Of a DNA stretch of 64,000 nt, positions 32,273 to 46,687 are shown piece after piece; the stretch's first letter is position 1; each line of letters begins with the position of its first letter. The notes beneath the pieces are model-generated. The model was given only the letters and a program-made list of their open reading frames with translations, did no database searches and had not been told where the DNA came from. Source of the stretch: Candidatus Dormiibacterota bacterium (GTDB taxonomy: Bacteria; Chloroflexota; Dormibacteria; Aeolococcales; Bog-877); the NCBI GenBank assembly GCA_049799515.1, contig JBARIA010000119.1:18613-82612 (forward strand). The letters run 5' to 3'. Made by a program: the position numbers and the translations under genes.

Positions 32273-32300
32273 AGGATCGCCGAGGTCTGGTCGCGGGACA

Positions 32301-32798
32301 TTATTGCCGTGCCGGCCCCAACTCCACCGAGTCGAAGAGATCAAGTTCTAGTTGGTCCGGTACTTCGAACAGAGTCGACCAATATTCGAGCTGCTCGCGG
32401 CTGATCGGAACTGCGGCCCATGTCGAACTCTGATTCCTCAGCTCCAGTCGGCGCCACAACTCCTCAGGAGGCACATCCAGATATTGCAGATGGACCGCTA
32501 CTCCCAGGACTCGTGCTCCCAGCCGCTTTTCGTCACGATCCGAGCGCAGCCAGAATCCTGACTCCAAGATCACGCTTTGGCCGAGCCTCAGCAGGTCCTG
32601 GGCGAGAAGCCAGAACTGCACTTCGATCCGGTCTCGCGCCTGCTCGTCGTGGAGGGTGATGCCCAGACGCGCCATCCACTCGTCGCCGCACAGCCGGACC
32701 GCCGAAAGCTGTCCCCCCAGATGCTTGGCGAGGGTCGTCTTCCCGGAGCCGGGCAGTCCGCAGAGCAGAATCAGGCGGGGGGTGGGGCGCCCGGTCAC
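32301..32798 (-). CDS. P-loop kinase-like ATP-binding protein (AAA_33 / zeta-toxin-like fold)
   Basis: 165 aa with Walker A GLPGSGKTT near the N-terminus. Confidence 0.6.
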   Translation of the reverse strand: MTGRPTPRLILLCGLPGSGKTTLAKHLGGQLSAVRLCGDEWMARLGITLHDEQARDRIEVQFWLLAQDLLRLGQSVILESGFWLRSDRDEKRLGARVLGVAVHLQYLDVPPEELWRRLELRNQSSTWAAVPISREQLEYWSTLFEVPDQLELDLFDSVELGPARQ

Positions 32799-32892
32799 AA
32801 CCCGTCTCCGAACTCACGAGCAGTCAAGGTGGGCCGGAGCGTAGCGGTTGCGAGCGCGGTGGCCCACACGGGACCCGCTCCGGCGTCCTGGC

Positions 32893-33258
32893 TCAGTCTC
32901 CGGCCGATTCCTGCAGGCTGGTCTGCGCCGTCAAAGGGTAGTCGAATCGGATCACGTCGATCGGCCGTTCCAGCACCCACGCCAAAAAGCTCTGATGCAG
33001 CGGATGGATCAGATACGCCGCGTAGGCGTCGGAATCAGTGAACTCGGTTAGGAGACCGAACTGGTAGCCGTCGGCTCGCTCTAGGGTGTCGCGCCCGAAC
33101 CGTAGCCGACGCAAGCCCGGCAGTCCCGCCCATTTGGCTATCTGGCGTCGCATCTCCTCCTCGACCTCCGGCCGCGGCTCCTCCCGGAGCCGGAAGAGGA
33201 CCAGGTGCTGGATCGGCCAGTGAGAGTCAGTGGCCGACGATGAGTCCATCAGGAGCAC
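32893..33258 (-). CDS. Dabb (stress-responsive alpha/beta-barrel) domain protein
   Basis: 121 aa. IQHLVLFRL...FGLLTEFTDSDAYAAYLIHPLHQSF is the typical Dabb pattern. Confidence 0.7.
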   Translation of the reverse strand: MLLMDSSSATDSHWPIQHLVLFRLREEPRPEVEEEMRRQIAKWAGLPGLRRLRFGRDTLERADGYQFGLLTEFTDSDAYAAYLIHPLHQSFLAWVLERPIDVIRFDYPLTAQTSLQESAGD

Positions 33259-33276
33259 CGGCCACGGGCTGAAGAG

Positions 33277-34779
33277 TTAGAAGAATTCAAAGTATTCGTT
33301 CTGCTCCCACTCTGTGACCTCGGCGGGGTCGGCGGCGGATCCGGCCTCCTCCACATATCTGTTGTACTCAAAACGCTTGAGCATGACCAGGTAGTCGACG
33401 ATCTCGGACCCCAGGGCCTGGCGGAAGAATTTGTCTCGGTCGAGCGCCTCCACCGCCTCACCCAGACTGACGGGCAGGGCCGGCGCCGCCTCTGAGTAGG
33501 GGTCGGCATGGACCATCGGCGGTGGGGCCAGTTGGCGTCGGATCCCGTCCAGTCCAGCGGCGATGTTGGCGGCCATGTAGAGGTAGGGATTGGCGGCCGG
33601 CTCCCCGAGCCGATTCTCCAGGTGCGAGCCCTGGTCCCCGGGCTGTCCCTGAACGCGGAGCATCGAGCCGCGGTTCTCCAGCGCCCAGTTGACCCGGTTG
33701 GGCGCGAACGAGTACGGCTTGAACCGCTTGAAGCCGTTGACGGTGGGGGTGGAGAAGACGGTCATGGGGATGGCGTGCTCCAGGATTCCTGCGGCGAACT
33801 GACGCCCGGTCAGAGAGAGCGCCTCCTGGTCGGTGCTGGCAAAGGAGTTGCCTCCCTGCTTGGCGTCCTGGAGCGACTCGTGCAGGTGCCAGCCGCTCGA
33901 GGAGACGTTGGGGATCAGTGGCCGGCACATGAATGTGGCGTGGAAGCCGAGCTGGTGGCAGATTTGCTTGGCGGCGGTCCGGAACAGGACCATGGCATCA
34001 GCGGCTCCCAGTCCCAGCTGGGGGTCGAAGGTGATCTCCGTCTGACCGGGACCCCACTCGTCCTCCATGGTGCGCAGAGGCAGCCCGACCGCCTCGAAGT
34101 GGTCCCGCAGAGGATCGAGGATCTCGCTGATCTGGGCCAGGCGGGTCTCGGAAAGGTACTGGTAGCCCTGAGCCACCACGCTGACCTGAGGCGCCTTGGG
34201 CGGCCAGCCGGTTTCGTCGATGCCGATCCGCAGCTGCTCCCGACGGAAGATGTAGAACTCGACCTCCAGGCCGGCGGCGTACTCGAAGCCCATCTCTCGC
34301 GCCAGCTCAAGCTGCCGGCGCAGCACCTGCCGGGTGAAGAGTCCCACCGGCTTGCCATTGCTGAAATAGGCGTCGGAGAGCACCCAGGCGGTCTGGTTGG
34401 CCCAGGAGAGGACCTGGAAGGTGGTCGGGTCCGGGACCAGGACCAGATCCGGGAAACCTGTCAGCTCGGGGATGCCGAACCCGCCCCCCTCCACGAAGGC
34501 CGGGGGAAATACCTTGTTGGCCGTGTCGAGGCTCAGGATGGCCCCGGAGAAGTCGATGCCGTTGCGCAAAGAGAGCAGGAAATCGTGGGCGGACACGAAC
34601 TTGCAGCGGACCATCCCGTGCTGGTCCACCACCCCCACCCGCACCGTCCGGATGCCCTGCTCCGAGACCAGCGCTGCGGCGCGCTCGGCGCCCGCCTGCA
34701 TGGCGTCGGTGAAGAGACCGTGCTGGGCGATGAAACCCACCTTGCCGACGGCTAAGTCCCGCACTGACGTGCTGGTCAT
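33277..34779 (-). CDS. Glutamine synthetase family protein (GS-like gamma-glutamyl ligase, GlnA/PuuA-like)
   Basis: 500 aa. GS catalytic-domain hallmarks are GLEVEFYIF, DEWGPGQTEITF, ATFMCRP, SGWHLHESL, NGFKRF and NRGSMLRV...LENRLGEPAANPYL. Confidence 0.85.
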   Translation of the reverse strand: MTSTSVRDLAVGKVGFIAQHGLFTDAMQAGAERAAALVSEQGIRTVRVGVVDQHGMVRCKFVSAHDFLLSLRNGIDFSGAILSLDTANKVFPPAFVEGGGFGIPELTGFPDLVLVPDPTTFQVLSWANQTAWVLSDAYFSNGKPVGLFTRQVLRRQLELAREMGFEYAAGLEVEFYIFRREQLRIGIDETGWPPKAPQVSVVAQGYQYLSETRLAQISEILDPLRDHFEAVGLPLRTMEDEWGPGQTEITFDPQLGLGAADAMVLFRTAAKQICHQLGFHATFMCRPLIPNVSSSGWHLHESLQDAKQGGNSFASTDQEALSLTGRQFAAGILEHAIPMTVFSTPTVNGFKRFKPYSFAPNRVNWALENRGSMLRVQGQPGDQGSHLENRLGEPAANPYLYMAANIAAGLDGIRRQLAPPPMVHADPYSEAAPALPVSLGEAVEALDRDKFFRQALGSEIVDYLVMLKRFEYNRYVEEAGSAADPAEVTEWEQNEYFEFF

Positions 34780-34816
34780 TTACCTCTCCTCCTCGTGCGT
34801 GCTCTCCCCCCGCCGC

Positions 34817-35551
34817 TCAGCCGCCGCCAGCCGCCACCCCTGACGCCGCCGGGTGTCCGGTCTGGCTCTCACCCACCGACACCACCTCCTTGGGCGCCAG
34901 CCTAACCCTGTGACTGGCGGTCGGGAAGCAGAGCGTGAAGATGGCCTCGTCCAGTGAGTGGAGAGCGGTGCTGGCGACCTCGGCCCCATCCAGTCGGAAG
35001 CGCCAGCCATCGTTCTCGGGGTTGCCGGCGTAAAAGAGGGGCGAGCCTCTGGCGGGCAGGTAAGCCAGGTTGGCACTTCCTCCCAGCTGCCGGTGCACCT
35101 CCTTGAGCGCGGTCGCTGGCTCCGGGCCATCCGCGACCAGTGACTCAAAGAGCCGGAATCCGACCTCGCTGTCCGCCTGCCCCTCGAGCTTCCCTGCGAA
35201 ATGGTCCCGCAACCCGGGGGCTCCATCCAGCCCACCGTTGTGGCCGAAGGCAAAGGAGCCATCGTCGGCCACGAAGGGCTGGGTGTCGGCCAGGCCGACC
35301 GTTGTGAGTCGAGCGGGTCGGCGGAGATGGAGCAGGAAGTGGCTGGAGCGGATCCCGAGCAGGTTGGCCCGGCCATTGTGGTCGTCGCGGAGTGTCCCCG
35401 GATCCCGGTACCGACGGATCCGACCCGCCTCACGCCAGGCCAGACCCCAGCCGAAGCCGCCAATCCCTAGGCGTTCTAACTCCAGGCCCCAGGGAAGCAC
35501 CTTCTCGAAGGGTTGCGGCTCGGGCCACACGGCGACCAAAATCTCACACAC
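34817..35551 (-). CDS. Class II (Ntn-type) glutamine amidotransferase-like protein
   Basis: The ORF track gives 34817..35935. I trim the start to GTG 35551 so the protein begins (M)CEILVAV, with the nucleophile Cys at position 2 as in Ntn amidotransferases. This start overlaps the lrp stop by 8 nt. About 244 aa. Confidence 0.7.
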   Translation of the reverse strand: MCEILVAVWPEPQPFEKVLPWGLELERLGIGGFGWGLAWREAGRIRRYRDPGTLRDDHNGRANLLGIRSSHFLLHLRRPARLTTVGLADTQPFVADDGSFAFGHNGGLDGAPGLRDHFAGKLEGQADSEVGFRLFESLVADGPEPATALKEVHRQLGGSANLAYLPARGSPLFYAGNPENDGWRFRLDGAEVASTALHSLDEAIFTLCFPTASHRVRLAPKEVVSVGESQTGHPAASGVAAGGG

Positions 35552-36083
35552 TACGTCCGCTCTCCGGGCTTGGGGTACCGTCTGCGGGGCCAGTCCGATG
35601 GGCATCGCTCTGATCCAAGAGCGACTCGGCCAGCTCCAAATCGAACGACTTGGGCGGCAGCTCCCCCAGGCAGAGCAGAGTCTCGGTGCGCTCGATCCCG
35701 CTGATCCGCCAGACCCGCTCGAAGAGCAGCTCCCGCAGGTGTTGCTGGTCCCGGGCCCGCAGCCGCACCAGGAGGTCGGAATCGCCGGTGACCACCTCCA
35801 CCTGCTCCACCTCAGGCAGGCGCCGAAGCTCGGCGACCGTGGCCGCCTGCTCGCTGCCCTGCACCCCGGTGACCCGGATGTAGACCAGCAGGCCGTAACC
35901 CAGCCGACTCCAGTCGATCTCAGCTCGGTAGCCACGGATCACCCCGTGACGTTCCAGCCGGGCGATCCGCTCGGCGACCGCCGGGGCTGACATGCGCACC
36001 TCAGCGGCGATCCCGCGCACCGAGCGGCGGGCGTCGCGCAGCAGCAGTACCAGGATCTGGAGATCGGTTGGATCGAGGCCCAT
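35544..36083 (-). CDS. Lrp/AsnC family transcriptional regulator
   Basis: Start trimmed to ATG 36083 (MGLDPTDLQILVLLLRDARRSVRGIAAEVRMSAPAVAERIARLERHGVIRGY). This is the HTH_AsnC region, followed by an RAM-like domain. Confidence 0.85.
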   Translation of the reverse strand: MGLDPTDLQILVLLLRDARRSVRGIAAEVRMSAPAVAERIARLERHGVIRGYRAEIDWSRLGYGLLVYIRVTGVQGSEQAATVAELRRLPEVEQVEVVTGDSDLLVRLRARDQQHLRELLFERVWRISGIERTETLLCLGELPPKSFDLELAESLLDQSDAHRTGPADGTPSPESGRSV

Positions 36084-36194
36084 TGGGGGCCCCTGGACCG
36101 CCGCAAACGGTCCGGATTCCGGCTCACCATCAGTAAGGTGGTTAAGAGGTTTTACCGCTATGTCGTGAGGAGCGCTCCCGTTAGCCACCCTTTC

Positions 36195-36228
36195 ATGATA
36201 TAGGTAGATGCCATAATTAGGCTATCAT
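36195..36228. promoter_or_regulatory. AT-rich inverted repeat ATGATA-N22-TATCAT, candidate Lrp operator in the divergent control region
   Basis: The only strongly AT-rich patch (ATGATATAGGTAGATGCCATAATTAGGCTATCAT) in the 253-bp spacer between the lrp gene and the cupin gene. Confidence 0.35.
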
Positions 36229-36336
36229 TTGCGACTGGGGCCGGACGGTTTTCCGTCTGGTTTGTGGGCACGGTGACAGCGGGATTTGTGGGGCCGGATT
36301 TGATCGCCGGCTAAGGGCGTCGAGGGGAGTTCAGCT

Positions 36337-36759
36337 ATGAGTCTCGCGGACCAGTACTTCGCCGAGCCGGGATCGGGCAAGGCCCCCACCAGCCAGGGTC
36401 ATTTCGTGGACCTGGCCAAAGACGTCGAGCCGGTCGTGTTCGTGCCTGGACTGGAGTTCAGGCCGGCTCTGGGCGAGGCCACCATGCTGAATTCCGTGCG
36501 CTTCGCGCCCCACACCGAGGCTCCCCTGCACAGCCACGACGAGGAGCAGCTGACCCTGGTGGTGGAGGGAGAGCTGGAGTTCGAGATCGATGGCGAGGTG
36601 CGCCTGCTCACCCCGGGGATGGTGGCGGTGATCCCGGCCAATGTCCCTCACGGGGCCAAGACCGGAGATCTGCCCTGCCACGAGTACGACGTCTTCAACC
36701 CACCCCGCCGAGCGCTGCTGGCCCTGCGGACTCAGAGCCTGCCCCAGGCCGACGGCTAG
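36337..36759 (+). CDS. Cupin domain protein
   Basis: 140 aa with cupin motifs PLHSHDEEQLTLVVEGELEF and VIPANVPHGA. Confidence 0.75.
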   Translation: MSLADQYFAEPGSGKAPTSQGHFVDLAKDVEPVVFVPGLEFRPALGEATMLNSVRFAPHTEAPLHSHDEEQLTLVVEGELEFEIDGEVRLLTPGMVAVIPANVPHGAKTGDLPCHEYDVFNPPRRALLALRTQSLPQADG

Positions 36760-36762
36760 CTG

Positions 36763-37545
36763 GTGGATCTCAACCTGCAGGGGCGACGGGCCGTGGTGAC
36801 CGGTGGCTCCAAGGGGCTGGGCGCGGCCATCGCCAGGGAGCTGCTCGCCGAGGGAGCGGTGGTCGCGATCTGCTCTCGGAACCAGGATGAGCTGGAGGCC
36901 GCGGCAGAGGAGCTGCGCCAGGGCGGGGGCCAGGTGGTCGCGCAGGTCGCAGACGTCACGGACCCCGAGCAGGTGGAGAGCTTCATCGGCCACTCGGTGG
37001 CGGAGCTGGGCGGTCTTGACGTACTGGTCAACAACGCGGGCCGGGCCCATCCCGGGACCTTCGCGACATTGACCGACGCCGACTTCCAGGCGGATCTGGA
37101 GGTCAAGCTCTTCTCCCAGATGCGCTGCAGCCGGGCCGCGCTGCCCCACCTGCGCCAGGCCGGAGGTGGAGCGATCATCAACATCAACGCCATCTACGGG
37201 CGGCAGCCCGACCCCGCCTTCTTCGCCACCTCGGTGGACCGGGCAGCTTGCCTGGCCTTCAACAAGGCGCTGGCGATGGAGGTGGCGGCTGAGGGGATCC
37301 TGGTCAACAGCGTCAACATCGGCTTCGTCCGCACGCCCCAGTGGCACAACCTCCACCAGCGGCGGGGACCCCAGCTCAGCGAGGAAGAATTTCTGGCCCA
37401 GACTGCCGCGGTCGAGGTCCCCCTGGGCCGGTTCGGCGAGGCCGACGAGGTCTCGGGGCTGGTCGCCTTTCTGGCCAGTTCTCGGGCCAGCTACATCACC
37501 GGTGCGTCGATCGACGTAAGCGGTGGCATGGGGAGGTACGTATGA
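36763..37545 (+). CDS. Short-chain dehydrogenase/reductase (FabG-like)
   Basis: 260 aa with VVTGGSKGLGAAIAREL and NNAG. The stop overlaps the next start (ATGA). Confidence 0.85.
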   Translation: MDLNLQGRRAVVTGGSKGLGAAIARELLAEGAVVAICSRNQDELEAAAEELRQGGGQVVAQVADVTDPEQVESFIGHSVAELGGLDVLVNNAGRAHPGTFATLTDADFQADLEVKLFSQMRCSRAALPHLRQAGGGAIININAIYGRQPDPAFFATSVDRAACLAFNKALAMEVAAEGILVNSVNIGFVRTPQWHNLHQRRGPQLSEEEFLAQTAAVEVPLGRFGEADEVSGLVAFLASSRASYITGASIDVSGGMGRYV

Positions 37546-38492
37546 CCGCACCTGGTGAGATCGTCTACTTCGGCGGAGAGTTCGTGGACCAGGAACGGGC
37601 CCGGGTCCCGATCACCTCCCACGCCTTCAACTACGGCACCGGCTGTTTCGAGGGGATCCGCGCCTACTGGAGTGACCCCCGCGAGCAGCTCTTCGTGATC
37701 CGGCTTAGGGAGCACGGCCAGCGGATCCTGCGCTCGGCGAAAATCCTGCATCTGGAGCCAGATCCCGAGCTCACCGTGGGCAGGTTTGAGCAGATCGTCC
37801 TGGAGCTGCTGGCCCGCAACGACTACCACCAGGACGCCTACATCCGTCCCATCATCTACAAAGGCGGTCACACCATCAAGGTGACCCTAGCCGGGATTCC
37901 CACCGAGTTCTGCTGTTACACGCTGCCGATGGGCGACTACCTGGACATCCGCAAGGGACTCCGGATGATGACCTCCAGCTGGCGTCGAATCGATGACAAC
38001 GCCATTCCGGCCCGGGCCAAGCCGACCGGGGCCTACCTCAATGCCGCCCTGGCTGCCGACGAGGCCCGGTCGCTGGGCTTCGACGAGGCGCTGATGCTGA
38101 CCCACGACGGCCAGGTGGCCGAGGCCTCCTCGGCCAACCTCTTCATGGTCCAGGACGGGGTTGTGATCACCCCCCCGGTCACCGACGACCTGCTGGTTGG
38201 GGTGACCAGGGACTGCGTCATCGCGATGGTCAAGCAGAAGGGCTGGGCGCTGGAAGTGCGTCAGATCGACCGCAGCGAGCTGCTGGCGGCCGACGAGGCG
38301 TTTCTCTGCGGGACCGGGGTGCAGGTCGCCCCGGTGACCAGCATCGATCAACGTCAGGTCGGGGACGGCCAGCTGGGCGAGCTGACCAAGGAGCTCCAGG
38401 ACTGGTACCTGCAGATCATGCGGGGGGAGGTGGAGGACTTCGCCAGCTGGCGCACTTTGGTCGCGCCGCTGGCCCTGCCGGCGAGTCGCTGA
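37542..38492 (+). CDS. Class IV aminotransferase (branched-chain amino acid / D-amino acid aminotransferase family)
   Basis: The ORF track gives 37341..38492. I use ATG 37542 ([43 protein letters not shown]), a typical IlvE-type N-terminus. Confidence 0.85.
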   Translation: [316 protein letters not shown]

Positions 38493-38519
38493 CCGAGCTG
38501 GCTGAAGAGGAGATTGGAA

Positions 38520-38963
38520 ATGGCGCTGGTCCACCTGGTCGAGGAGTCGGAAGCCGAGGGGCTGGTCCAGGAGGTCTACCAGGACATCATGACCAGCCGC
38601 AAGCTGGCCCGGGTGCCCAACTACTGGAAGGCGCTGGCCAACCAGCCGGCGGTGCTGGCGGTCACCTGGGAGAAGCTCAAGACGGTGATGGCCGAAGGTG
38701 CTCTCGATCGACGCACCAAGCAGATCATCGCGGTCGCGGTGTCGGCCACCAATAACTGCGACTACTGCCTGCAGAGCCACACGGACGCGCTCCGGAGCCT
38801 TGGCCTCGGTGACGCCGAACTGGTCGAGCTGATGGCGGTGGTGGACTTCTTCAACGGATCGAACGCTATGGCATCGGGACTGAAAGTTGAGTACGTCCCG
38901 GCGGTGCCGCTGGAGGAGGAGTCGCCCGCCGGGGCATCAACAAACGGAAAGGAGGGGACCTGA
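38520..38963 (+). CDS. Carboxymuconolactone decarboxylase (AhpD-like) family protein
   Basis: CxxC-type motif NNCDYCLQSHT. Preferred start is ATG 38520, with GGAG 7 nt upstream. The track start is TTG 38514. Confidence 0.7.
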   Translation: MALVHLVEESEAEGLVQEVYQDIMTSRKLARVPNYWKALANQPAVLAVTWEKLKTVMAEGALDRRTKQIIAVAVSATNNCDYCLQSHTDALRSLGLGDAELVELMAVVDFFNGSNAMASGLKVEYVPAVPLEEESPAGASTNGKEGT

Positions 38964-40484
38964 ATGGCGACCAGCGAAGCGATATCCCAAGCCGGGAGCC
39001 TGGAGGGCACCGGCCAGCTGCGCAAGGGAAGCCTGCGCACCATCGACGCGGTGGCGATGGCGGTCGCGGTGCTGGCACCGGCGATGGCCATGGCCTACAA
39101 CACCAGCGGGTCGGCGGCCTTCTCGGGCACCTCGACCCCACTGGCGTTCCTGATCGGAGGCATCGGTTGCCTGGCTCTGGGCTTTGTGGTGATCGGATTC
39201 ACCCGCCGGATGGCCTCGGCCGGCTACGCCTACACCTACTCCAGCCGGACGCTGGGCAAGCGGGTGGGCTTCTTGACCGGCTGGATGTACTTCTTCGGGT
39301 TCTTCTGCTTCGTGCCGATGACCATGAGCGGGGTGGGCGGCTTCACCGCCGCCTTGATCCAGACCGAGGTCTGGCACGGGATGCCCAGCTGGTTCTGGTT
39401 CCCTATCTTCCTGGTGGGGATGGCGGCGCTGGTGACCCTCTCCTACCGGGGCGTCAAGCTCAGCGCCCGGGCCCTGCTCTGGGTGGGAGCGGTCACCGTC
39501 ACCGTGATCGTGGTCCTCGACGTCATCCTGACCATCAAGGGGGGAAAGTTCGGCCAGACGCTGCAGCCGTTCACCTTCGGGCACACCCTGCAGGGAGGCT
39601 TCAGTGGCATCTTCTACGGACTGATCTTCGGGGTCACGTCCTTCATCGGCTTCGAGACCGCAGCGGTGCTCGGTGAGGAGACGCGAAACCCCCGCAAGGC
39701 GATCCCGATTTCGGTGCTGGTGGCTGTCTGCTTCGCCATCATCTTCTACGTCTGGACCACCTACAACATCGCCATCGGAGTGGGAGTCAACGCGGCTGGT
39801 TCCAAGGCCTGGGCCGCCAACCCCGCCATCCTGGCCACGCTGGCCAAGACCTTTGTCGGCACGCCGATGATGATCATCGTCGACCTGGCCGCCATCGGCT
39901 CGGCGTTCATCGTCTGCCTGGCCTGCGCTACCGCCGCGACCAGAACCCTCTTTGCGATGGGTCGGGAAGGGGTGCTGCCGAACTGGCTGGGACGCACCCA
40001 TCCAGTCACCCGCACCCCGACCAACGCGATCCTGATGCTCGCCGGAGCGGCCACGATTTCCGCCTTTGTGAGCGGCATCCTTTGGAACCTGGGCCCCTCC
40101 AATAACTATTTCTTCTACGCCAGTGTTGGCACCATTGCGGTGTGCCTCGTCTATGTGGTCCTCTGCGTCGGTGGCTCGGTCTACTTCCGCCGCATCTCGC
40201 AGCGGTACAACCTGCTCGTCCACGGGCTGATCCCGGTGATCGGGATCGCCGTCTTTGGTCTCGCCGTGTACGGTTCCATCTACTCAGGAGCGGTTCCGCC
40301 GGCGCCCTATACCTTCGTGCCCTACGTCAACCTGGGCTGGCTGGTGGTGGGGATCATGCTGGTGGCCTACCTGTCCAAGAGCGCCCCCGAAAAGGTGGGC
40401 CAGATCGGGTCCATCCTGGGCGAGGAGGGCGGGGAGGCGGCCGCGGTTCTGGATCAGCCAGCAATCGCGCCCGCCAGCGGCTAG
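38964..40484 (+). CDS. APC superfamily amino acid/polyamine permease
   Basis: 506-aa ORF with about 12 TM segments. The ATG abuts the upstream stop (TGAATG), with AAAGGAGG upstream. Confidence 0.8.
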   Translation: MATSEAISQAGSLEGTGQLRKGSLRTIDAVAMAVAVLAPAMAMAYNTSGSAAFSGTSTPLAFLIGGIGCLALGFVVIGFTRRMASAGYAYTYSSRTLGKRVGFLTGWMYFFGFFCFVPMTMSGVGGFTAALIQTEVWHGMPSWFWFPIFLVGMAALVTLSYRGVKLSARALLWVGAVTVTVIVVLDVILTIKGGKFGQTLQPFTFGHTLQGGFSGIFYGLIFGVTSFIGFETAAVLGEETRNPRKAIPISVLVAVCFAIIFYVWTTYNIAIGVGVNAAGSKAWAANPAILATLAKTFVGTPMMIIVDLAAIGSAFIVCLACATAATRTLFAMGREGVLPNWLGRTHPVTRTPTNAILMLAGAATISAFVSGILWNLGPSNNYFFYASVGTIAVCLVYVVLCVGGSVYFRRISQRYNLLVHGLIPVIGIAVFGLAVYGSIYSGAVPPAPYTFVPYVNLGWLVVGIMLVAYLSKSAPEKVGQIGSILGEEGGEAAAVLDQPAIAPASG

Positions 40485-40566
40485 TGGCGGGCGGCAACAC
40501 CATCCCCAAGCGGGCTTCGGGTGAGGGCCGACGGGCCCCCACCCGGGCCCACTTCCGCGCCCAGTC

Positions 40567-41664
40567 ATGATCGACAGCCATGGCCACCCGGTCACCGGGG
40601 CGGGCGAGCCGCTCGACCTCAGTGGGATCCACCTGGAGATCGCCAGCGACGGGGAGGCCCGAGCGCTCAGAGCCCAGGCCTCCCCCGGCCGGCTGAGCCA
40701 GGAGCTGATGGCCGTGCGGCTGTCCGCCTACCTCCGTTGCGAGGTGGAAGAGCTAGGTGTGGCCAGGGCCCAGGCCAGCGCCCACTGGCCCGGCTACGTG
40801 GCCGGACTCTTCGCCGACGCCCGCATCGAGGGCCTGGTCTTGGACCCCGGAAGCTACCAGGAGGATCCCGCGCCAGCGACCCAGGAGATGGCCACTATCA
40901 CGGCGACCAAGGTCCGCCCGATCATGCGCCTCGACCCCTTGCTGGACCGGCTCATCTCCGAGGGGCTGACCGCCTCGGAGATCCTTGCGGCCGCCGAGCA
41001 GGCGGTACACCAGGCTCCCGATCAGGGATATGTCGGGCTGAAGACGATCCTCGCCTATCGCACCGGGCTCAAGGTGGACCCCGACGCGACTCTGAAGGAG
41101 GCGGATGCCTCGCTCAAGAACACCAAGGAGCTGCCCACGCGCCGACGGGGCAAGGCGCTCCGCGACCTGATCTGTCGCAAGACGCTGGGCTGGGCCACCG
41201 AACTCGATCTACCGATTCAGTTCCACACCGGCTTCGGCGACTCCGAGCTCCGGCTCAGTGAGGCCGATCCTCTGCTCTTGGAGGAGCTGCTGCTGACCCC
41301 CGAGGGGACAGCCGCCACCGTGGTGCTGATCCATGGTTCCTATCCCTGGCACGAACAGCTGGCCTACCTGACCTTGGTCCGACCCAACGTCCACGCCGAA
41401 CTTTCGCTCTTCAATCTGTTCGCCCCGGTCACGGTCGCCCAGAGGCTGGAGCGGGTGCTGGAGCTGGCACCCGCCTCCCGGGTGATGTGCGGCACCGATG
41501 GCCACGGCTCGCCCGAGACCTACTGGTTCGCTGCCCACGTACTGCGCGAGGCCTGGGCCAAAGTGCGCCAGGACTGGGCGGCTGCAGGGGCCCGCAAGGC
41601 GTGGCTCACGTCACTTGAGGACTCCATCTTTCGGGCCAACGCCGCCCGCCTCTACCGGTTCTGA
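40567..41664 (+). CDS. Amidohydrolase_2 (TIM-barrel metal-dependent hydrolase) family protein
   Basis: 365 aa. N-terminal MIDSHGHP metal-ligand motif, then later ...PIQFHTGFGD... and ...GTDGHG... Confidence 0.7.
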   Translation: MIDSHGHPVTGAGEPLDLSGIHLEIASDGEARALRAQASPGRLSQELMAVRLSAYLRCEVEELGVARAQASAHWPGYVAGLFADARIEGLVLDPGSYQEDPAPATQEMATITATKVRPIMRLDPLLDRLISEGLTASEILAAAEQAVHQAPDQGYVGLKTILAYRTGLKVDPDATLKEADASLKNTKELPTRRRGKALRDLICRKTLGWATELDLPIQFHTGFGDSELRLSEADPLLLEELLLTPEGTAATVVLIHGSYPWHEQLAYLTLVRPNVHAELSLFNLFAPVTVAQRLERVLELAPASRVMCGTDGHGSPETYWFAAHVLREAWAKVRQDWAAAGARKAWLTSLEDSIFRANAARLYRF

Positions 41665-41732
41665 CCGGAACGGTCCATCGCCAGCACGGCCAGCTGCTCC
41701 CGGTGGCAATGGTCACGGGTCAGGCCGGATTG

Positions 41733-42959
41733 CTACTCGTGATCGCCAACGTTGACCGAGAGCGCCCCCTCCATACCGGGAGAAGTGCGTCGGGAGGGAA
41801 TCAATGACTGCCAGCTCTGCCGCTGTCGCCCGGTCAGAGCGAATGCGAGGGGAGTTCGCGCCAAGAGGCCAGTGAGCAGGCCGCAGCCCACAAAGACGAG
41901 CACCACCGTGAAGAGGGACACCACCGGCCAGGGGATGACGCCGTCGAGATTGCGCCAGCCCCAGGCCTCCAGCGGAACAATGAATAGCATTTGAGAGAGG
42001 TAGATGCCGTAGGAGTTGTCGGATCCGGAACGAACCAGTGCCCGCAACCGAGTGGATCGGCGAGCGTCCGCCAGCCAGACCCCCAACAGGTAGAGCGAGC
42101 AGATGGCGCCAATGTAGAAGGGCACCACGATGGGCTGGAAGGGATCTGTCGGCCCGCCCAACCCAATGACGGTACCGGTCGAGTCCAGGGTGTACCAGAG
42201 CTCGGCGACCGCGGCGGCGGCGGCAGTCGCGGCCAGAACCAGATGCGCGTGGCTCCGCAGCCAGGCGTCAATGGTGTCTAGGTGCCAGGCGACGACCATG
42301 CCTCCGACCAAATAGAACTGGTAGGAGGTGAACTCTCGGGACGCGGCGAGTCCCAGCATCCACGACGGCAAGTGCGACCAGTGGATCAGGGAGACGAGCA
42401 CCAACTGAAGCACCAGGCTGATCGAGAGCAGCCACTTGTGATGCCGTTGGGTCGCCCGCAATAGTAGCAAAAATAGGGGGAAAACAAGGTAGAACTGCAT
42501 GATCACGATCAGGTAGTACAGCTGGTAGTAACCGGTACCCACCAGGTATCCCAGGTGAGCTAGTGCGCCCAGCGGTGTGTACGAGACTCCCTTTAGCGGG
42601 AAAACCATGCGAAGGCCGAAGTAGATGAGCGTCCAAGCGAGATACGGGATCCCCACGGCCACGAAACGGCGCTTGTAGAAGCGGCGGTATCCCCCGCGCG
42701 CCAGATCCCGGTAGCTGTAGGTGAGCATGCACGCTGAGAGAAAGAGAAACCCCTCGCGGGTCACGTGGAACAGTAGGATCGACGCGCCAACGGCGATGGC
42801 GCCGCCTGGGGCAAAACCCAACAACGTGTGATTGGAGATCACCCCGACCTGTTTGATCGGCCGCATCGCGTCGACGTGGTCGAGACGCCGTTTGGAATTG
42901 TTCGCGCCGTGAGTCGGGGGAGTGCTCCCCGCTGGTGGCGAGCTCAGTGGGTCTTCCAC
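41733..42959 (-). CDS. Membrane acyltransferase, acyltransferase_3 family
   Basis: 408 aa with about 10 TM segments. The N-terminal RLDHVDAMRPIKQ resembles the conserved R-x-D-x-x-R/G opening of the acyltransferase_3 family. Confidence 0.75.
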   Translation of the reverse strand: MEDPLSSPPAGSTPPTHGANNSKRRLDHVDAMRPIKQVGVISNHTLLGFAPGGAIAVGASILLFHVTREGFLFLSACMLTYSYRDLARGGYRRFYKRRFVAVGIPYLAWTLIYFGLRMVFPLKGVSYTPLGALAHLGYLVGTGYYQLYYLIVIMQFYLVFPLFLLLLRATQRHHKWLLSISLVLQLVLVSLIHWSHLPSWMLGLAASREFTSYQFYLVGGMVVAWHLDTIDAWLRSHAHLVLAATAAAAAVAELWYTLDSTGTVIGLGGPTDPFQPIVVPFYIGAICSLYLLGVWLADARRSTRLRALVRSGSDNSYGIYLSQMLFIVPLEAWGWRNLDGVIPWPVVSLFTVVLVFVGCGLLTGLLARTPLAFALTGRQRQSWQSLIPSRRTSPGMEGALSVNVGDHE

Positions 42960-42997
42960 CGAGAGCTAGTAGTGGCCTTTGGTGGTGGGGCGATGGG

Positions 42998-44686
42998 TCA
43001 CGAGCTGGCCCGCAGGCAGTAGAGGCTCACGGTCTGGCCGACCAGGTGTCGGCGCACCTTGCCGGTGGCGCCAAACGGAAGGTTCTCGACCACGTGAAAT
43101 GCGACCGGCCGCCGGGCCCGCGACAACGACCGCTCGCAGTGCTCCTGGACCCGGTGCACCAGCACTCTGGCCCGGGCCCCGTCCCGCTGGCTGATCGGAA
43201 CTCTGGGCACCAGATAGGCGACCGGGACCTGTCCCATGACCACATCGGCCCGAGCCACGACGGCGACCGCCGCGATCTCGGGGTCGGCCATGATCACCTC
43301 CTCCACTTCGCGAGGGTAGATCTTCTCGCCACCCCGGTTGATCACGTCGTCGGCGCGCCCGACCAGGAATAGGTAGCCATCGTCATCCAGCCGGCCGAGG
43401 TCGCCGGTGTCGAGCCATCCATCCGAGTCGAACCGGTCCTCGTAGCCGGCGCCAAAGTACCGAGTGATAACGCCCGGCCCTCTGATCAGAACCGCTCCAA
43501 CTGCCGTCGACAGGGATCCGATCTCGTCTGGACCGTCCTCAGCCGGTCGACGGGCGCCTTCCCGCTCCCGGTGGCGCCCGGCCGCTAGGGCAGCGGGCAG
43601 CAGGCGCAGTTCGACTCCGATCGGCACTCCCACCGAACCCGGTTTGCGGGTGCCGCTGAGGGGATTGGCGGTGATCTGGCTACCCGCCTCGCTCATCCCG
43701 TATGTCTCGATCACTGGGACGCCGGTGGTGTCCTCGAAGCGCCGAAGAGTCGACACCGGCAGCGGTGCGGAGGCCGACCTGATGAACCTCACCGATGATG
43801 GAACCCGCTCATCCGGATCGAGCGGAACCAACCGGGCGATCACCGCGGGCACAGCATTGATCCAGGTGACTTGCCACCGCTCCATCAGTCGCCAGAAGCC
43901 CTTGCGGTGGAAGCGATCGTCGACCACCAAGGTCGCGCCCGCCAGCAGGGTCGCCAACAGTCCCACCGCCTCCGCGTTGATATGGAAGAGGGGAAGTGGA
44001 TTGAAGCCGCAGTCACTGGGCGTGAGCTGGTGGTGGGAGGCGATGCCGCGCGCGGTATGCAGCAGCTGGGCCTCGGAAAGACAGATCAGCTTCGGTTGGC
44101 CGGTAGTCCCCGAACTGGAGAGGAGGAGACCGCCTGACGTGCCGGCAGGGTGGGCGTCACGGTTGGCAAAGAGATTGCTCGGAGGCACAGGAATCACGGG
44201 CGCGGCCGGCCGCGCGTTTTCCTGCAGTCCTGTCCAGCCGGAGTGGAACGCCAATTCCGGCCTGTCGAAGGATCCGGTTGGTAGCTCGCTCCACCCGTCC
44301 ACAGCTGGGCCGGGAGACGGATGGTCAGCGATCACGATGCGGGGATGAAGCCGCTGGCATACGGCGCTCAGCTCCTCGTCGGGCGCGGCAGGATTGAGTG
44401 GTGCCGCAGTTCTGCCTGAAGCGACCACGGCCAGGAACAGCAGTGAGAAGTCAACCGGGTCTGCCACGGCGATACCTACCACCTGGCCCCGCCGGGCGCC
44501 CAGCTTGGGGAGCAGTGTGCGCCAGCGGTCCACCACTTCGTGGAGCTCGCCGAAGGTGATCCCACGCTCCCCACGTGAATGCTCGAGAAAGGCGTCCTCA
44601 CCGTCGGTTGCGGCCCTACGCCGAATAACTTCAGCCAACTGGGACCCGCGATCAGAAGGCTCAATCTCGGGGATTTCTGCCGCCAT
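42998..44686 (-). CDS. ANL-superfamily adenylate-forming enzyme (acyl-CoA synthetase/ligase-like)
   Basis: 562 aa. AMP-binding motif LLSSSGTTGQPKLI, ETYGMSE, and TGDLGRLDDDGYLFLVGRADDVINRGGEKIYPREVE. The ATG shares 1 nt with the upstream stop (TGATG). Confidence 0.85.
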   Translation of the reverse strand: MAAEIPEIEPSDRGSQLAEVIRRRAATDGEDAFLEHSRGERGITFGELHEVVDRWRTLLPKLGARRGQVVGIAVADPVDFSLLFLAVVASGRTAAPLNPAAPDEELSAVCQRLHPRIVIADHPSPGPAVDGWSELPTGSFDRPELAFHSGWTGLQENARPAAPVIPVPPSNLFANRDAHPAGTSGGLLLSSSGTTGQPKLICLSEAQLLHTARGIASHHQLTPSDCGFNPLPLFHINAEAVGLLATLLAGATLVVDDRFHRKGFWRLMERWQVTWINAVPAVIARLVPLDPDERVPSSVRFIRSASAPLPVSTLRRFEDTTGVPVIETYGMSEAGSQITANPLSGTRKPGSVGVPIGVELRLLPAALAAGRHREREGARRPAEDGPDEIGSLSTAVGAVLIRGPGVITRYFGAGYEDRFDSDGWLDTGDLGRLDDDGYLFLVGRADDVINRGGEKIYPREVEEVIMADPEIAAVAVVARADVVMGQVPVAYLVPRVPISQRDGARARVLVHRVQEHCERSLSRARRPVAFHVVENLPFGATGKVRRHLVGQTVSLYCLRASS

Positions 44687-46564: not shown

Positions 46565-46687
46565 GTTCTGCTGGGAAAAGGAACGCCGAAGCGTTGGAGC
46601 CGACCGAGGCGGGCCTTGGTTGGCCGTCAGCCGCCGGCGGAAAAGCTCCAGCCGGCGGTTGGGGTGGTGGCGGGCGCCCTCACACCC

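What the first reader, a model, noticed from the sequence alone, without database searches (positions are those of the whole stretch)
32893..41664. Lrp-centred divergent island pairing a GS-like ligase, an Ntn amidotransferase and a Dabb protein with a cupin/SDR/class IV aminotransferase/CMD/APC permease/amidohydrolase_2 operon
**Seen in sequence.**
- The minus-strand arm is lrp (35544-36083), an 8-nt overlapped class II amidotransferase-like gene beginning (M)CEIL, a 500-aa glutamine-synthetase-family gene, then a Dabb gene.
- The plus-strand arm is divergent, across a 253-bp spacer. It carries six tightly spaced genes with ATGA and TGAATG junctions. These are cupin, SDR, IlvE-type aminotransferase, AhpD/CMD with a CxxC motif, APC permease and amidohydrolase_2.

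**Established knowledge.** GS-like enzymes outside core nitrogen assimilation usually gamma-glutamylate amines, such as polyamines, ethanolamine, isopropylamine, methylamine and aniline. A partner amidotransferase or hydrolase handles the glutamyl group. As I recall, an amidohydrolase_2 domain fused to a GS-like domain is the architecture of fungal FluG. Both halves occur here as separate genes in one regulon-like unit.

**Inference.** This is an import-plus-gamma-glutamylation pathway for an unidentified amine or non-proteinogenic amino acid, probably switched by an amino-acid-sensing Lrp. I do not recognise this exact ten-gene composition as a described pathway.
Basis: partly seen in the sequence, partly recalled or inferred. 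Interest (0 to 1): 0.6.

Follow-up and report, generated by a model that had tools for sequence, protein, structure and literature searches.

The report
Conserved gamma-glutamyl tagging catabolic gene cluster
A soil bacterium of the Dormibacterota carries a ten-gene, regulator-centred cluster, shared with many uncultured soil Actinomycetota, that most likely takes up an unidentified amino compound, tags it with glutamate, processes it and removes the tag; it is a new variant of known amine-degradation routes.

Summary

- **Ligase:** the GS-like protein is not a glutamine synthetase. It keeps every metal, ATP and glutamate ligand but has lost the ammonium site (S53E, E327F). It scores below all GlnA, PuuA and GmaS cut-offs. 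In a tree it sits beside the aromatic-amine gamma-glutamyl ligases NpaA1 and DcaQ.
- **Hydrolase:** the neighbouring Ntn protein keeps Cys1 and the PurF-type glutamine-site motifs.
- **FluG link:** the amidohydrolase_2 belongs to the small 2QPX/FluG-N family, which includes 844-aa AH2+GS fusions.
- **Conservation:** 30 of 40 genome loci whose GS is at least 56% identical carry six or more of the eight partner families. Only 1 of 40 more distant loci carries four or more.
- **Substitutions:** the aminotransferase and the Ntn gene are replaced by non-orthologous or differently placed versions in other lineages. That points to selection on function.
- **Distribution:** the cluster is accessory. 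It fills a variable thrC-leuD site and occurs in 15 of 22 congeneric genomes.

The substrate remains unknown. The canonical BCAT and an N-succinylamino-acid-racemase-like gene in sister loci point to a hydrophobic amino acid or a derived amine. I found no paper describing this cluster. Verdict: a real, new variant of a known kind.

The parts
32893..33258 (-). Dabb (stress-responsive alpha/beta-barrel) protein, 121 aa; last gene of the minus arm
   Evidence: Pfam Dabb, E 3e-15. A Dabb gene follows the GS or Lrp gene in 30 of 40 loci whose GS is at least 56% identical.
33277..34779 (-). GS-like ATP-dependent gamma-glutamyl ligase (GoaS type), 500 aa
   Evidence: Gln-synt_C, E 5e-82. Below all GlnA, PuuA and GmaS equivalog cut-offs. 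Best solved relative is NpaA1 8wwu, E 3e-118. Catalytic ligands kept and ammonium site lost. Tree placement beside NpaA1 and DcaQ.
34817..35551 (-). Class II (Ntn, Cys1) amidotransferase-fold protein, 244 aa; predicted gamma-glutamyl-amide hydrolase
   Evidence: GATase_4, 28 bits against a cut-off of 23. Weak EgtC similarity. The Cys after the start codon is invariant in 38 homologues. Invariant C2, H75-L76-R77, H104-N105-G106 and D127-S128-E129. Homologous to the second Ntn type used in actinobacterial loci, hhalign probability 98.4%.
35544..36083 (-). Lrp/AsnC-family regulator, 179 aa; first gene of the minus arm; overlaps the Ntn start by 8 nt
   Evidence: HTH_AsnC-type plus AsnC_trans_reg. 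Overlap read. Present in 34 of 40 loci whose GS is at least 56% identical, divergent from the cupin/aminotransferase arm in the common arrangement.
36084..36336 (.). Divergent 253-bp control region with an AT-rich block and inverted repeat ATGATA (36195-36200) ... TATCAT (36223-36228)
   Evidence: Sequence read. The right arm GCTATCAT and the left arm CAT(G/A)(A/T)TAT are conserved in orthologous spacers L001-L003, as is a block CAGTAAGGTGG. No consensus sigma-70 promoter was found in the spacer.
36337..36759 (+). Small metal-binding mono-cupin, 140 aa
   Evidence: Cupin_2, E 2e-15. H65, H67, E70/Q71 and H105 are invariant in 30 orthologues. AlphaFold model pLDDT 91. Nearest folds are Sthe2323 (function unknown), then KdgF, AerE and BacB.
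36763..37545 (+). Classical SDR oxidoreductase, 260 aa
   Evidence: adh_short and adh_short_C2. Best NCBIfam match PRK07062, 250 bits against a cut-off of 266. Always directly downstream of the cupin.
37542..38492 (+). Class IV branched-chain amino acid aminotransferase paralogue, 316 aa
   Evidence: Passes BCAT equivalog cut-offs: NF005146 325.7 against 279, TIGR01122 305 against 245.55. Thirteen of the 16 checked E. coli IlvE sites are identical (M107I and A258G are shared with the housekeeping copy; W126M is the only cluster-specific change). A second ilvE, 47% identical, is on contig C4.
38520..38963 (+). AhpD-like CMD-family protein with CxxCxxxH (ORF from TTG 38514; likely start ATG 38520)
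   Evidence: CMD, E 3e-18. AhpD core domain TIGR00778, 58.2 against 27.8. Start discussed. Travels with the class IV aminotransferase in 8 loci.
38964..40484 (+). APC-superfamily amino acid/amine permease, 506 aa
   Evidence: AA_permease_2 and AA_permease. Only weak matches to named transporters. Present in 29 of 40 loci whose GS is at least 56% identical. Absent from some relatives: G003 and L043.
40567..41664 (+). Amidohydrolase_2 of the 2QPX / FluG-N-terminal family, 365 aa
   Evidence: Amidohydro_2, E 1.5e-19. Only solved relative is 2QPX, E 2e-30, with the K-x4-Y, H, H and D ligands aligned and HxH at residues 5 and 7. 29% identical over its whole length to the N-terminal half of the 844-aa AH2+GS fusion P0264.

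Best explanation
This is an accessory, Lrp-controlled catabolic or salvage cluster for an amino compound that has not been identified. It works by transient gamma-glutamylation.

Proposed steps:
1. The APC permease imports the compound.
2. The GS-like ligase uses ATP and glutamate to form a gamma-glutamyl amide on the compound's free amino group.
3. The protected intermediate, or the amino acid released from it, is processed by an aminotransferase (here a canonical BCAT that interconverts a hydrophobic L-amino acid and its 2-oxo acid). A metal cupin of the 2-oxo-acid-binding KdgF/AerE/BacB type and an SDR follow.
4. The Cys1 Ntn hydrolase removes the glutamate again.
5. The FluG-N-type binuclear amidohydrolase either unmasks the amine from an amide or lactam precursor, or acts as a second deglutamylase.
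6. The Lrp regulator senses the amino compound at the conserved inverted repeat in the divergent spacer.

Shown here: gene content, catalytic-residue status, family placement, synteny conservation, and accessory distribution.

Inferred: the order of steps, the direction (catabolic), the roles of the cupin, SDR, CMD, Dabb and AH2 proteins, and the substrate class. My best guess for the substrate is a branched-chain or otherwise hydrophobic amino acid, or an amine or amino alcohol derived from one.
For: **GS-like ligase**
- It keeps E129, E131, E212, E220, H269, H271, R321, R339, R344, E357 and R359.
- It has S53E and E327F, both invariant in 14 cluster copies, D50G (D50 is kept as Asp in 6 of the 14), and N264S.
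- It falls below all NCBIfam GlnA, PuuA and type III cut-offs.
- Its nearest solved protein is the 1-naphthylamine gamma-glutamyl ligase NpaA1. My reading of the alignment puts identity at about 45%. The acidic pair E232/E234 and W235 are kept.
- In the tree it is beside NpaA1, DcaQ and Rieske-linked ligases and far from GlnA and PuuA.
- A true GlnA exists elsewhere in the genome.

**Ntn protein**
- Cys1 is invariant in 38 homologues.
- The HLR, HNG and DSE motifs are invariant in both Ntn types. The two types are homologous.
- The only named relative is EgtC, a gamma-glutamyl amide hydrolase.

**Synteny**
- Of 40 loci whose GS is at least 56% identical, 32 hold at least 4 of the 8 partner families, 30 hold at least 6, and 8 hold all 8.
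- Of 40 more distant loci, 1 holds at least 4.
- No further conserved family was found in 38 loci.

**Functional substitution**
- The BCAT plus CMD pair here is replaced by a KAT-II/LysN-type class I aminotransferase in most actinobacterial loci.
- The Ntn gene appears as two types in two positions.

**Other components**
- The BCAT pocket is canonical.
- The cupin's characterised structural neighbours, KdgF, AerE and BacB, bind acid ligands at the metal.
- The AH2 metal ligands are intact.

**Distribution**
- The cluster occurs in 15 of 22 genomes of the genus and is absent from several genomes at least 90% complete.
- G001 has an empty thrC-leuD site.
Against:
- The cluster has no oxygenase, amine oxidase or aldehyde dehydrogenase, which every characterised gamma-glutamylation pathway uses on the tagged intermediate.
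- There are two candidate deglutamylases (Ntn and AH2), and their division of labour is unknown.
- AH2 at 40% identity or more is present in only 14 of 40 related loci. The permease is missing from some relatives.
- The cupin's nearest structure has no known function.
- The BCAT could simply be a second housekeeping copy.
- The Ntn match to GATase_4 is weak, 28 bits.
Confidence: 0.62

Rival explanations
1. Gamma-glutamyl serves as a removable N-acyl handle on the alpha-amino group of hydrophobic amino acids. The ligase makes gamma-Glu-Xaa from a D- or unusual amino acid. An N-acyl-amino-acid racemase inverts it, the Ntn hydrolase releases L-Xaa, and the BCAT feeds it into metabolism. This would be an ATP-driven analogue of the succinyl-transferase / NSAR / desuccinylase route for using D-amino acids.
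For: - In the sister branch of the window's own GS clade, 7 loci (L004, L005, L037, L047, L058, L081, L083) place an enolase-superfamily gene in the same locus as Ntn-GS, usually directly after AT4 or CMD.
- That gene passes the NSAR/OSBS-type model TIGR01928, 260 against 200.65, with no menaquinone genes nearby.
- EgtC, the only named Ntn relative, cleaves a gamma-glutamyl-amino acid (established knowledge).
- The BCAT pocket is canonical.
- The regulator is of the amino-acid-sensing Lrp type.
Against: - The window's cluster and its closest orthologues (L001-L003, L043) have no racemase gene.
- The genome's only homologue (41% identical, contig C143) is paired with an M20 peptidase elsewhere.
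- The scheme gives no role to the cupin, SDR, AH2 or Dabb proteins, which are the most conserved partners.
- Without a racemase, the ligase and hydrolase would form a futile cycle.
Confidence: 0.15
2. The cluster detoxifies or degrades an aromatic amine (aniline-like, or a natural arylamine amino acid such as kynurenine). Glutamylation of the aryl nitrogen would prevent side reactions while the rest of the molecule is transaminated and processed.
For: - The closest characterised ligases are arylamine gamma-glutamyl ligases: NpaA1, and the pLME1 aniline-cluster protein at about 45% identity.
- W235 and F86 of the NpaA1 arylamine tunnel are conserved.
- The aminotransferase of the actinobacterial form belongs to the KAT-II/LysN family.
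Against: - There is no Rieske dioxygenase, reductase or class I amidotransferase partner, all of which define the aniline systems.
- The substrate loop is more polar than in NpaA1: F75 becomes L, and A69-I70-G71-P72 become S-G-A-I.
- The window uses a canonical BCAT, not an aromatic aminotransferase.
- The permease is of the amino acid type.
Confidence: 0.1
3. The Ntn protein is a true glutaminase subunit. It delivers ammonia from glutamine to the GS-like protein, which amidates a carboxylate. Together they would form a two-subunit glutamine-dependent amidoligase rather than a tag-and-untag pair.
For: - Class II amidotransferase domains normally serve a synthase partner (established knowledge).
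- The Ntn and GS genes are adjacent here.
- The GS-like protein has lost its free-ammonium site.
Against: - In most related loci the Ntn gene is not next to the ligase. It lies at the end of the divergent operon, after the SDR.
- EgtC and the aniline-system amidotransferase-like proteins are precedents for stand-alone gamma-glutamyl amide hydrolases.
- The glutamate-binding residues of the ligase are intact.
Confidence: 0.05
4. This is an ordinary second glutamine synthetase next to unrelated genes, with no functional unit.
For: Public annotation calls the homologues 'glutamine synthetase family protein'.
Against: - The ammonium site is lost, the score is below the GlnA cut-off, and the tree placement is elsewhere.
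- Synteny is conserved across two phyla.
Confidence: 0.02

Closest known systems
Arylamine gamma-glutamylation systems (AtdA1/TdnQ/DcaQ/NpaA1 ligase with a class I amidotransferase-like hydrolase and a Rieske dioxygenase)
   Same: - The ligase is the nearest characterised relative: about 45% identity, E 3e-118 to NpaA1, and a neighbouring branch in the tree.
- The tag-then-untag logic is the same, with a dedicated gamma-glutamyl amide hydrolase encoded beside the ligase.
   Different: - The hydrolase here is a class II Ntn (Cys1) protein, not a class I amidotransferase.
- There is no Rieske oxygenase or reductase.
- The partners are a cupin, an SDR, an aminotransferase, AH2, Dabb and an amino acid permease.
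- The regulator is Lrp rather than LysR.
- The substrate loop is more polar.
Aliphatic amine gamma-glutamylation pathways (PuuA-D for putrescine; GlnA2/3/4 of Streptomyces and Mycobacterium for polyamines and ethanolamine; IpuC for isopropylamine)
   Same: - A GS-like ligase protects an amine so that the rest of the molecule can be oxidised or transaminated, and a hydrolase then releases glutamate.
- S. coelicolor glnA3 is co-transcribed with an amidohydrolase_2 gene (SCO6961) and a small unknown gene (PMC5403932). That resembles the GS, AH2 and Dabb genes here.
   Different: - The score is below the PuuA equivalog cut-off, 229.5 against 650.
- PuuA is very distant in the tree.
- The cluster has no oxidase, P450 or aldehyde dehydrogenase.
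- The hydrolase is of a different fold.
FluG (Aspergillus) / NodGS (plants): fused amidohydrolase_2 + GS-like proteins of unknown chemistry
   Same: - Both domain families are present in one regulon-like unit.
- The window's AH2 and the FluG N-terminal half share the same closest structure, 2QPX, and the same metal ligands.
- An 844-aa fusion aligns over its full length with the window's AH2 (29% identity) and GS (29% identity).
   Different: - The two are separate genes at opposite ends of the cluster and on opposite strands.
- The ligase is much closer to NpaA1 (about 45% identity) than to the fusion's GS half (29%).
- AH2 is not present in every related locus.
EgtC of ergothioneine biosynthesis (stand-alone class II Ntn gamma-glutamyl amide hydrolase)
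   Same: - It is a stand-alone Cys1 Ntn protein with the Arg, Asn-Gly and Asp glutamine-site motifs.
- It is the only named family hit for both Ntn types.
   Different: - The scores are far below the EgtC cut-off: 23.4 and 61.9 against 218.65.
- No other ergothioneine biosynthesis enzyme family turned up among the genes conserved next to it.
BacB-BacG-BacF / AerE-AerF trios (cupin isomerase, SDR reductase, aminotransferase acting on cyclic 2-oxo acids in bacilysin and aeruginosin biosynthesis)
   Same: - The same three enzyme classes are encoded side by side: aminotransferase, cupin, SDR.
- The cupin's characterised structural neighbours include AerE with bound 4-hydroxyphenylpyruvate, and BacB.
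   Different: - Sequence similarity is low, 18-26% identity.
- The window's cupin is a single-domain protein, whereas BacB and AerE are bicupins.
- There is no prephenate decarboxylase.
- The context here looks catabolic rather than biosynthetic.

Membership tests
Bona fide glutamine synthetase (GlnA, type I) | Score at or above the curated equivalog cut-off (TIGR00653) | tested here: not met
   214.7 bits against a cut-off of 429.15.
Bona fide glutamine synthetase (GlnA, type I) | Ammonium-site residues D50', S53' and the E327 flap (Salmonella/E. coli numbering; residue roles from established structural work) | tested here: not met
   D50 becomes G in the window (6 of 14 cluster copies keep D). 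S53 becomes E and E327 becomes F in all 14 cluster copies. The genome's own GlnA on C63 keeps all three.
GoaS (glutamyl organic-amide synthetases, GS-like gamma-glutamyl ligases) | GS catalytic domain with intact metal, ATP and glutamate ligands | tested here: met
   E129, E131, E212, E220, H269, H271, R321, R339, R344, E357 and R359 are all conserved. Gln-synt_C, E 5e-82.
GoaS (glutamyl organic-amide synthetases, GS-like gamma-glutamyl ligases) | Groups with characterised organic-amine ligases rather than with GlnA | tested here: met
   Groups in one well-supported clade (SH-aLRT 97) with the NpaA1/DcaQ/Rieske-linked group; the order of branches inside that clade is unresolved. Long branches separate it from GlnA and PuuA.
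GoaS (glutamyl organic-amide synthetases, GS-like gamma-glutamyl ligases) | Extra N-terminal substrate loop ('15th motif', NpaA1 V68-M81) | tested here: met
   The loop aligns without gaps to NpaA1 and has a different, more polar sequence.
GoaS (glutamyl organic-amide synthetases, GS-like gamma-glutamyl ligases) | ATP-dependent gamma-glutamylation of an organic amine in vitro | not testable with these tools
   Needs an enzyme assay.
Aniline/naphthylamine dioxygenase gene cluster (atd/tdn/dca/npa) | Class I amidotransferase-like hydrolase plus Rieske dioxygenase alpha and beta subunits and a reductase next to the ligase | tested here: not met
   All are present on pLME1. None is present in the window or in 38 related loci.
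Puu putrescine pathway | PuuA equivalog score; PuuB, PuuC and PuuD partners | tested here: not met
   229.5 bits against a cut-off of 650. No oxidase, aldehyde dehydrogenase or class I hydrolase is in the cluster.
N-methylglutamate pathway (GmaS + MgsABC) | Type III GS/GmaS equivalog score; glutamate-synthase-like MgsB and MgsC next to the Ntn domain | tested here: not met
   TIGR03105, 237.3 bits against a cut-off of 469.6. No MgsB- or MgsC-like genes are present.
FluG/NodGS | 2QPX-like amidohydrolase_2 domain with binuclear-site ligands, together with a GS-like domain | tested here: met
   for AH2; for GS.
FluG/NodGS | Both domains fused in one polypeptide (AH2 N-terminal, GS C-terminal) | tested here: not met
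   They are separate genes, 33277-34779 (-) and 40567-41664 (+). Fusions such as P0264 exist elsewhere in the AH2 family.
Class II (Ntn) glutamine amidotransferase fold / EgtC-like hydrolases | N-terminal nucleophile Cys directly after the initiator Met | tested here: met
   MCEIL here. Cys is invariant in 38 homologues of both types.
Class II (Ntn) glutamine amidotransferase fold / EgtC-like hydrolases | Glutamine-site Arg, oxyanion Asn-Gly and alpha-amino-binding Asp (PurF R73, N101-G102, D127; roles from established knowledge) | tested here: met
   R77, N105-G106 and D127 are invariant. The same motifs occur in the second type.
Class II (Ntn) glutamine amidotransferase fold / EgtC-like hydrolases | EgtC equivalog score and ergothioneine gene context | tested here: not met
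   23.4 bits against a cut-off of 218.65. No other ergothioneine biosynthesis enzyme family is among the genes conserved next to it.
Branched-chain amino acid aminotransferase (IlvE) | Equivalog score and substrate/PLP pocket residues | tested here: met
   NF005146, 325.7 against 279; TIGR01122, 305 against 245.55. Y31, F36, G38, R40, Y95, R97, V109, Y129, K159, Y164, E193, G256 and T257 are identical to E. coli IlvE. M107I and A258G are shared with the housekeeping copy; W126M is the only cluster-specific change.
Lrp/AsnC regulators | N-terminal AsnC-type HTH plus C-terminal ligand-binding (RAM) domain | tested here: met
   Both Pfam domains are above their cut-offs. No named equivalog is reached.
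AhpD-like CMD proteins | AhpD core domain with CxxCxxxH | tested here: met
   TIGR00778, 58.2 against 27.8. C-D-Y-C-L-Q-S-H is read.

The most novel reading that the evidence does not exclude
The cluster is the free-standing bacterial form of the FluG/NodGS chemistry, completed by a dedicated Ntn deglutamylase. The FluG-N-type amidohydrolase would liberate an amino compound. The GS-like ligase would attach glutamate as a removable N-acyl handle. On that handle hydrophobic amino acids, or amines derived from them, would be epimerised (in loci that carry the NSAR-like gene), transaminated, isomerised and reduced before the handle is cut off. If so, these operons would give a tractable bacterial system for working out what FluG and NodGS do, which has been unknown since the proteins were first described.
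Probability: 0.15. Interest if true: 0.75.

Novelty: new variant of a known kind. Interest (0 to 1): 0.5.

Why it matters
Gamma-glutamylation is a recurring way for bacteria to handle reactive or toxic amines. Every characterised route pairs the ligase with an oxygenase or oxidase and a class I amidotransferase-like hydrolase.

This cluster shows a different, self-contained solution: an Ntn hydrolase, a cupin, an SDR, an aminotransferase, a FluG-type amidohydrolase and a Dabb protein. It is conserved in dozens of uncultured soil Actinomycetota and Dormibacterota.

Identifying its substrate would:
- add a nitrogen- or carbon-source pathway for two abundant soil phyla;
- assign functions to several 'family protein' annotations;
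- perhaps give a first biochemical handle on the FluG/NodGS class.

Tried and rejected
- **Named-family searches.** NCBIfam gave no equivalog for the ligase, Ntn, cupin, AH2, Dabb, permease or regulator. Only the BCAT and the AhpD core domain pass their cut-offs.
- **Solved-structure searches.** The cupin, SDR, Ntn and Lrp proteins returned only uncharacterised or generic relatives: 4e2g, 3lf1, 1te5 and archaeal Lrp proteins. None hints at the substrate.
- **Cupin model.** A fold search with the AlphaFold model confirmed a KdgF/AerE/BacB-like mono-cupin but gave no specific function.
- **Unbiased ORF clustering.** Clustering all ORFs in 38 loci found no additional conserved family, such as an oxygenase or aldehyde dehydrogenase.
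- **Contexts of the nearest cultured or plasmid relatives.** These were S. tendae, M. nodulans, pLME1 and R. qingshengii. They differ from this cluster (Rieske oxygenases, class I amidotransferases, amidases), so they cannot be used to transfer a substrate.
- **Close GS relatives without the cluster (L033, L057).** These showed a cupin, ECF sigma factor and GS trio. It was not informative.
- **Second racemase module in the genome.** The only MR_MLE homologue is paired with an M20 peptidase on another contig.
- **Literature.** Searches found no description of this gene set.
- **Promoter scan.** No consensus sigma-70 promoter was found in the spacer.
- **One wasted Pfam call.** I passed only a 60-residue fragment.

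Full report
**Observation**

Each matches the stated Pfam family above its gathering score: Dabb, Gln-synt_C, GATase_4, AsnC-type HTH plus ligand domain, Cupin_2, adh_short, Aminotran_4, CMD, AA_permease and Amidohydro_2.

I read the junctions directly:
- The Lrp stop and the GTG start of the Ntn gene share GTGTGTGA, an 8-nt overlap.
- SDR and aminotransferase overlap as ATGA.
- CMD and permease abut as TGAATG.
- Cupin and SDR are 3 nt apart.
- The two arms diverge across 253 bp.

There are two small corrections. The CMD start is probably ATG 38520, which has a GAGGAG Shine-Dalgarno 7 nt upstream and matches the orthologue N-terminus MALVH. Homology supports the Lrp start at 36083 rather than the longest ORF.

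The flanks are unrelated. A P-loop AAA_33 kinase and a threonine-synthase-type PLP enzyme lie on one side, and an Acyl_transf_3 membrane protein lies on the other.

**The ligase**

The 500-aa GS-family protein scores below every curated equivalog: GlnA 214.7/429, type III 237/470, PuuA 229.5/650.

Its best solved relative by a wide margin is 8wwu, at E 3e-118; the next is at 2.5e-50. 8wwu is NpaA1, the 1-naphthylamine gamma-glutamyl ligase of Pseudomonas sp. JS3066 (PMC11335346).

I aligned it with E. coli GlnA taken from the annotated MG1655 record. All metal, ATP and glutamate ligands are present. The ammonium site is not: D50G, S53E and flap E327F. S53E and E327F are invariant in 14 cluster copies. 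The genome's own GlnA on contig C63 keeps all three residues.

In a maximum-likelihood tree the cluster-linked ligases form two neighbouring clades. These group with a third clade that holds NpaA1, the pLME1 aniline-cluster ligase and a Rieske-linked Methylobacterium protein (SH-aLRT 97 for the whole group, branching order unresolved). Long branches separate them from GlnA and PuuA.

The NpaA1 acidic pair E232/E234 and tunnel residues W235 and F86 are conserved. The substrate loop V68-M81 is present but more polar, and V201 is Tyr. The protein is therefore a GoaS-type gamma-glutamyl ligase for an organic amine. Its acceptor cannot be read from sequence.

**The Ntn protein**

The 244-aa protein begins Met-Cys. 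In 38 homologues from related loci, the residue after the start codon is always Cys.

Two types exist. One sits directly upstream of the ligase, as here (MCE[IL]L). The other sits at the end of the divergent operon, after the SDR (MCRLL). They are homologous (hhalign probability 98.4%). They share invariant HLR, HNG and DSE motifs. By established knowledge of PurF-type domains, these motifs correspond to the Arg that binds the glutamine carboxylate, the oxyanion Asn-Gly, and the Asp that binds the alpha-amino group.

The only named relative is EgtC, which hydrolyses a gamma-glutamyl amide. The simplest reading is a gamma-glutamyl-amide hydrolase that undoes the ligase's tag.

**The amidohydrolase and FluG**

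The AH2 protein has a single solved relative, 2QPX (E 2e-30). The FluG study PMC6478659 names 2QPX as the closest structure to the FluG N-terminal half and lists its ligands. K-x4-Y, two His and Asp align. An HxH sits at residues 5 and 7 of the window protein.

An exhaustive search of 1.84 billion representatives found only 1,389 relatives. One of them is an 844-aa protein with Amidohydro_2 followed by GS N- and C-domains. Its two halves align over their full length with the window's AH2 and its ligase, each at 29% identity.

However, the ligase here is much closer to NpaA1 than to the fusion's GS half.

In S. coelicolor, the polyamine ligase gene glnA3 is co-transcribed with an amidohydrolase_2 gene and a small unknown gene (PMC5403932). 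This is a second precedent for the pairing.

**The plus arm**

- **Aminotransferase.** The class IV enzyme passes two BCAT equivalog cut-offs. Thirteen of the 16 E. coli IlvE pocket and PLP sites I checked are identical. M107I and A258G are shared with the housekeeping copy, so W126M is the only cluster-specific change (residue roles from my knowledge of the E. coli BCAT structures). A second ilvE (47% identical) on contig C4 is the likely housekeeping copy.
- **Cupin.** It keeps a His-His-Glu/Gln-His metal site in 30 orthologues. It models with pLDDT 91. Its nearest folds are an uncharacterised Sphaerobacter protein, then KdgF, AerE (solved with 4-hydroxyphenylpyruvate) and BacB.
- **SDR, permease and CMD.** The SDR and the permease have no informative named relatives. 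The CMD protein is AhpD-like with CxxCxxxH.

**Conservation**

A pattern scan of one genome per species returned 80 loci. I searched them with the window's proteins and with proteins from two well-annotated relatives.

- Of 40 loci whose ligase is at least 56% identical, 32 hold at least four of the eight partner families within 10 kb. Thirty hold at least six, and eight hold all eight.
- Most exceptions are short or truncated contigs.
- Of 40 more distant loci, only one holds four or more.

The carriers are Dormibacterota and many Actinomycetota metagenome-assembled genomes.

The commonest arrangement is Ntn-SDR-cupin-aminotransferase, divergent from Lrp-GS-Dabb-permease-AH2. In that arrangement the aminotransferase is a class I enzyme of the KAT-II/LysN family instead of BCAT plus CMD.

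In the window's own ligase clade, seven loci add an enolase-superfamily gene that passes the NSAR/OSBS-type model. Unbiased clustering of all ORFs found no further conserved partner.

The same functions are supplied by different families or from different positions. That argues the set is selected as a pathway.

**Distribution and locus**

The ligase is present in 15 of 22 genomes of the same genus, counting the window's own. It is present in 3 of 16 genomes of the neighbouring family. It is absent from several genomes at least 90% complete, so it is accessory.

In G001, thrC is followed after about 150 nt by leuD. In the window, about 14 kb separates them. That stretch holds a small P-loop kinase gene, this cluster and the neighbouring ComA cluster. 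G003 has the cluster next to thrC but without the permease.

Base composition is uniform, so there is no sign of recent foreign origin.

**Control region**

The spacer contains one AT-rich block with ATGATA (36195-36200) and TATCAT (36223-36228). The right arm and most of the left arm are conserved in three orthologous spacers (L001-L003), as is a CAGTAAGGTGG block. This fits an Lrp operator but was not tested further. No consensus sigma-70 promoter was detected in the spacer.

**Mechanism**

I commit, at about 0.6, to an inducible catabolic or salvage route built on transient gamma-glutamylation. The steps are:
1. uptake;
2. ligation of glutamate to the free amine;
3. work on the rest of the molecule or on the released amino acid by the aminotransferase, cupin and SDR;
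4. removal of glutamate by the Ntn hydrolase.

The FluG-type amidohydrolase would act either before the ligase, to unmask the amine, or as a second hydrolase.

Three observations make a hydrophobic amino acid, or an amine or amino alcohol derived from one, the best guess for the substrate: the canonical BCAT, its replacement by a LysN/KAT-II-type enzyme, and the NSAR-like gene in sister loci. This guess is inference only.

I rate the rivals as follows:
- a stereo-inversion 'N-acyl handle' scheme, 0.15;
- arylamine detoxification, 0.10;
- a glutamine-dependent two-subunit amidoligase, 0.05;
- an ordinary GS with chance neighbours, 0.02, already contradicted.

**Comparison and novelty**

The cluster works like the Puu, GlnA2-4, Ipu and Atd/Tdn/Npa pathways but is a member of none. 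It lacks their oxidative enzymes and their class I hydrolase, and it fails their equivalog scores. It contains both FluG domain families, but unfused.

I found no paper describing it. Earlier notes of this scan on look-alike clusters in other genomes reached a similar reading. These are leads, not independent evidence.

My verdict is a new variant of a known kind, of moderate interest. The interest would rise if the substrate or a link to FluG chemistry were shown.

**Limits**

The GATase_4 match is weak. The residue roles for GS, PurF-type domains and BCAT rest on my knowledge of published structures.

Noticed in passing
window 32273-46687: The roughly 14 kb between thrC (ends 32272) and leuD (starts 46688) is a variable site. 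In congeneric genome G001 the two genes are about 150 nt apart. Both this cluster and the neighbouring ComA/acyltransferase cluster are therefore insertions relative to that genome.
   Followed up: partly
genome contig C143:64240-66545 (locus L087:6241-8546), outside the window: An M20 peptidase gene overlaps the start of an enolase-superfamily (MR_MLE) gene that is 41% identical to the NSAR-like gene of sister loci. This looks like a classical N-acyl-amino-acid racemase plus deacylase pair.
   Followed up: partly
window 32301-32798 (-): A small P-loop AAA_33 kinase-like gene (165 aa) lies between thrC and the Dabb gene. It has two paralogues in the genome (C52, C16) and is adjacent to the cluster in L001 only. 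It is probably not part of the cluster.
   Followed up: partly
G002:C93:40809-41411 (congeneric genome): Only residues 1-201 of the ligase are matched there, at 87% identity, in an open frame of 223 aa. This may be a truncated or decayed copy.
   Followed up: no
L033:8716-11503 and L057:8488-11491: Close ligase relatives that lack the cluster sit instead behind a different 145-aa cupin and an ECF sigma factor. The cupin, sigma factor and GS trio is seen in two actinobacterial genomes.
   Followed up: no
L008, L010, L011, L028 (downstream of the permease or ligase): A peptidase S58 (DmpA/BapA-type aminopeptidase) gene converges on the cluster in one actinobacterial subgroup, where AH2 is missing.
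   Followed up: no
window 36125-36145: A block CAGTAAGGTGG is conserved in all five aligned orthologous spacers, between the Lrp start and the AT-rich inverted repeat. Its function is unknown.
   Followed up: no
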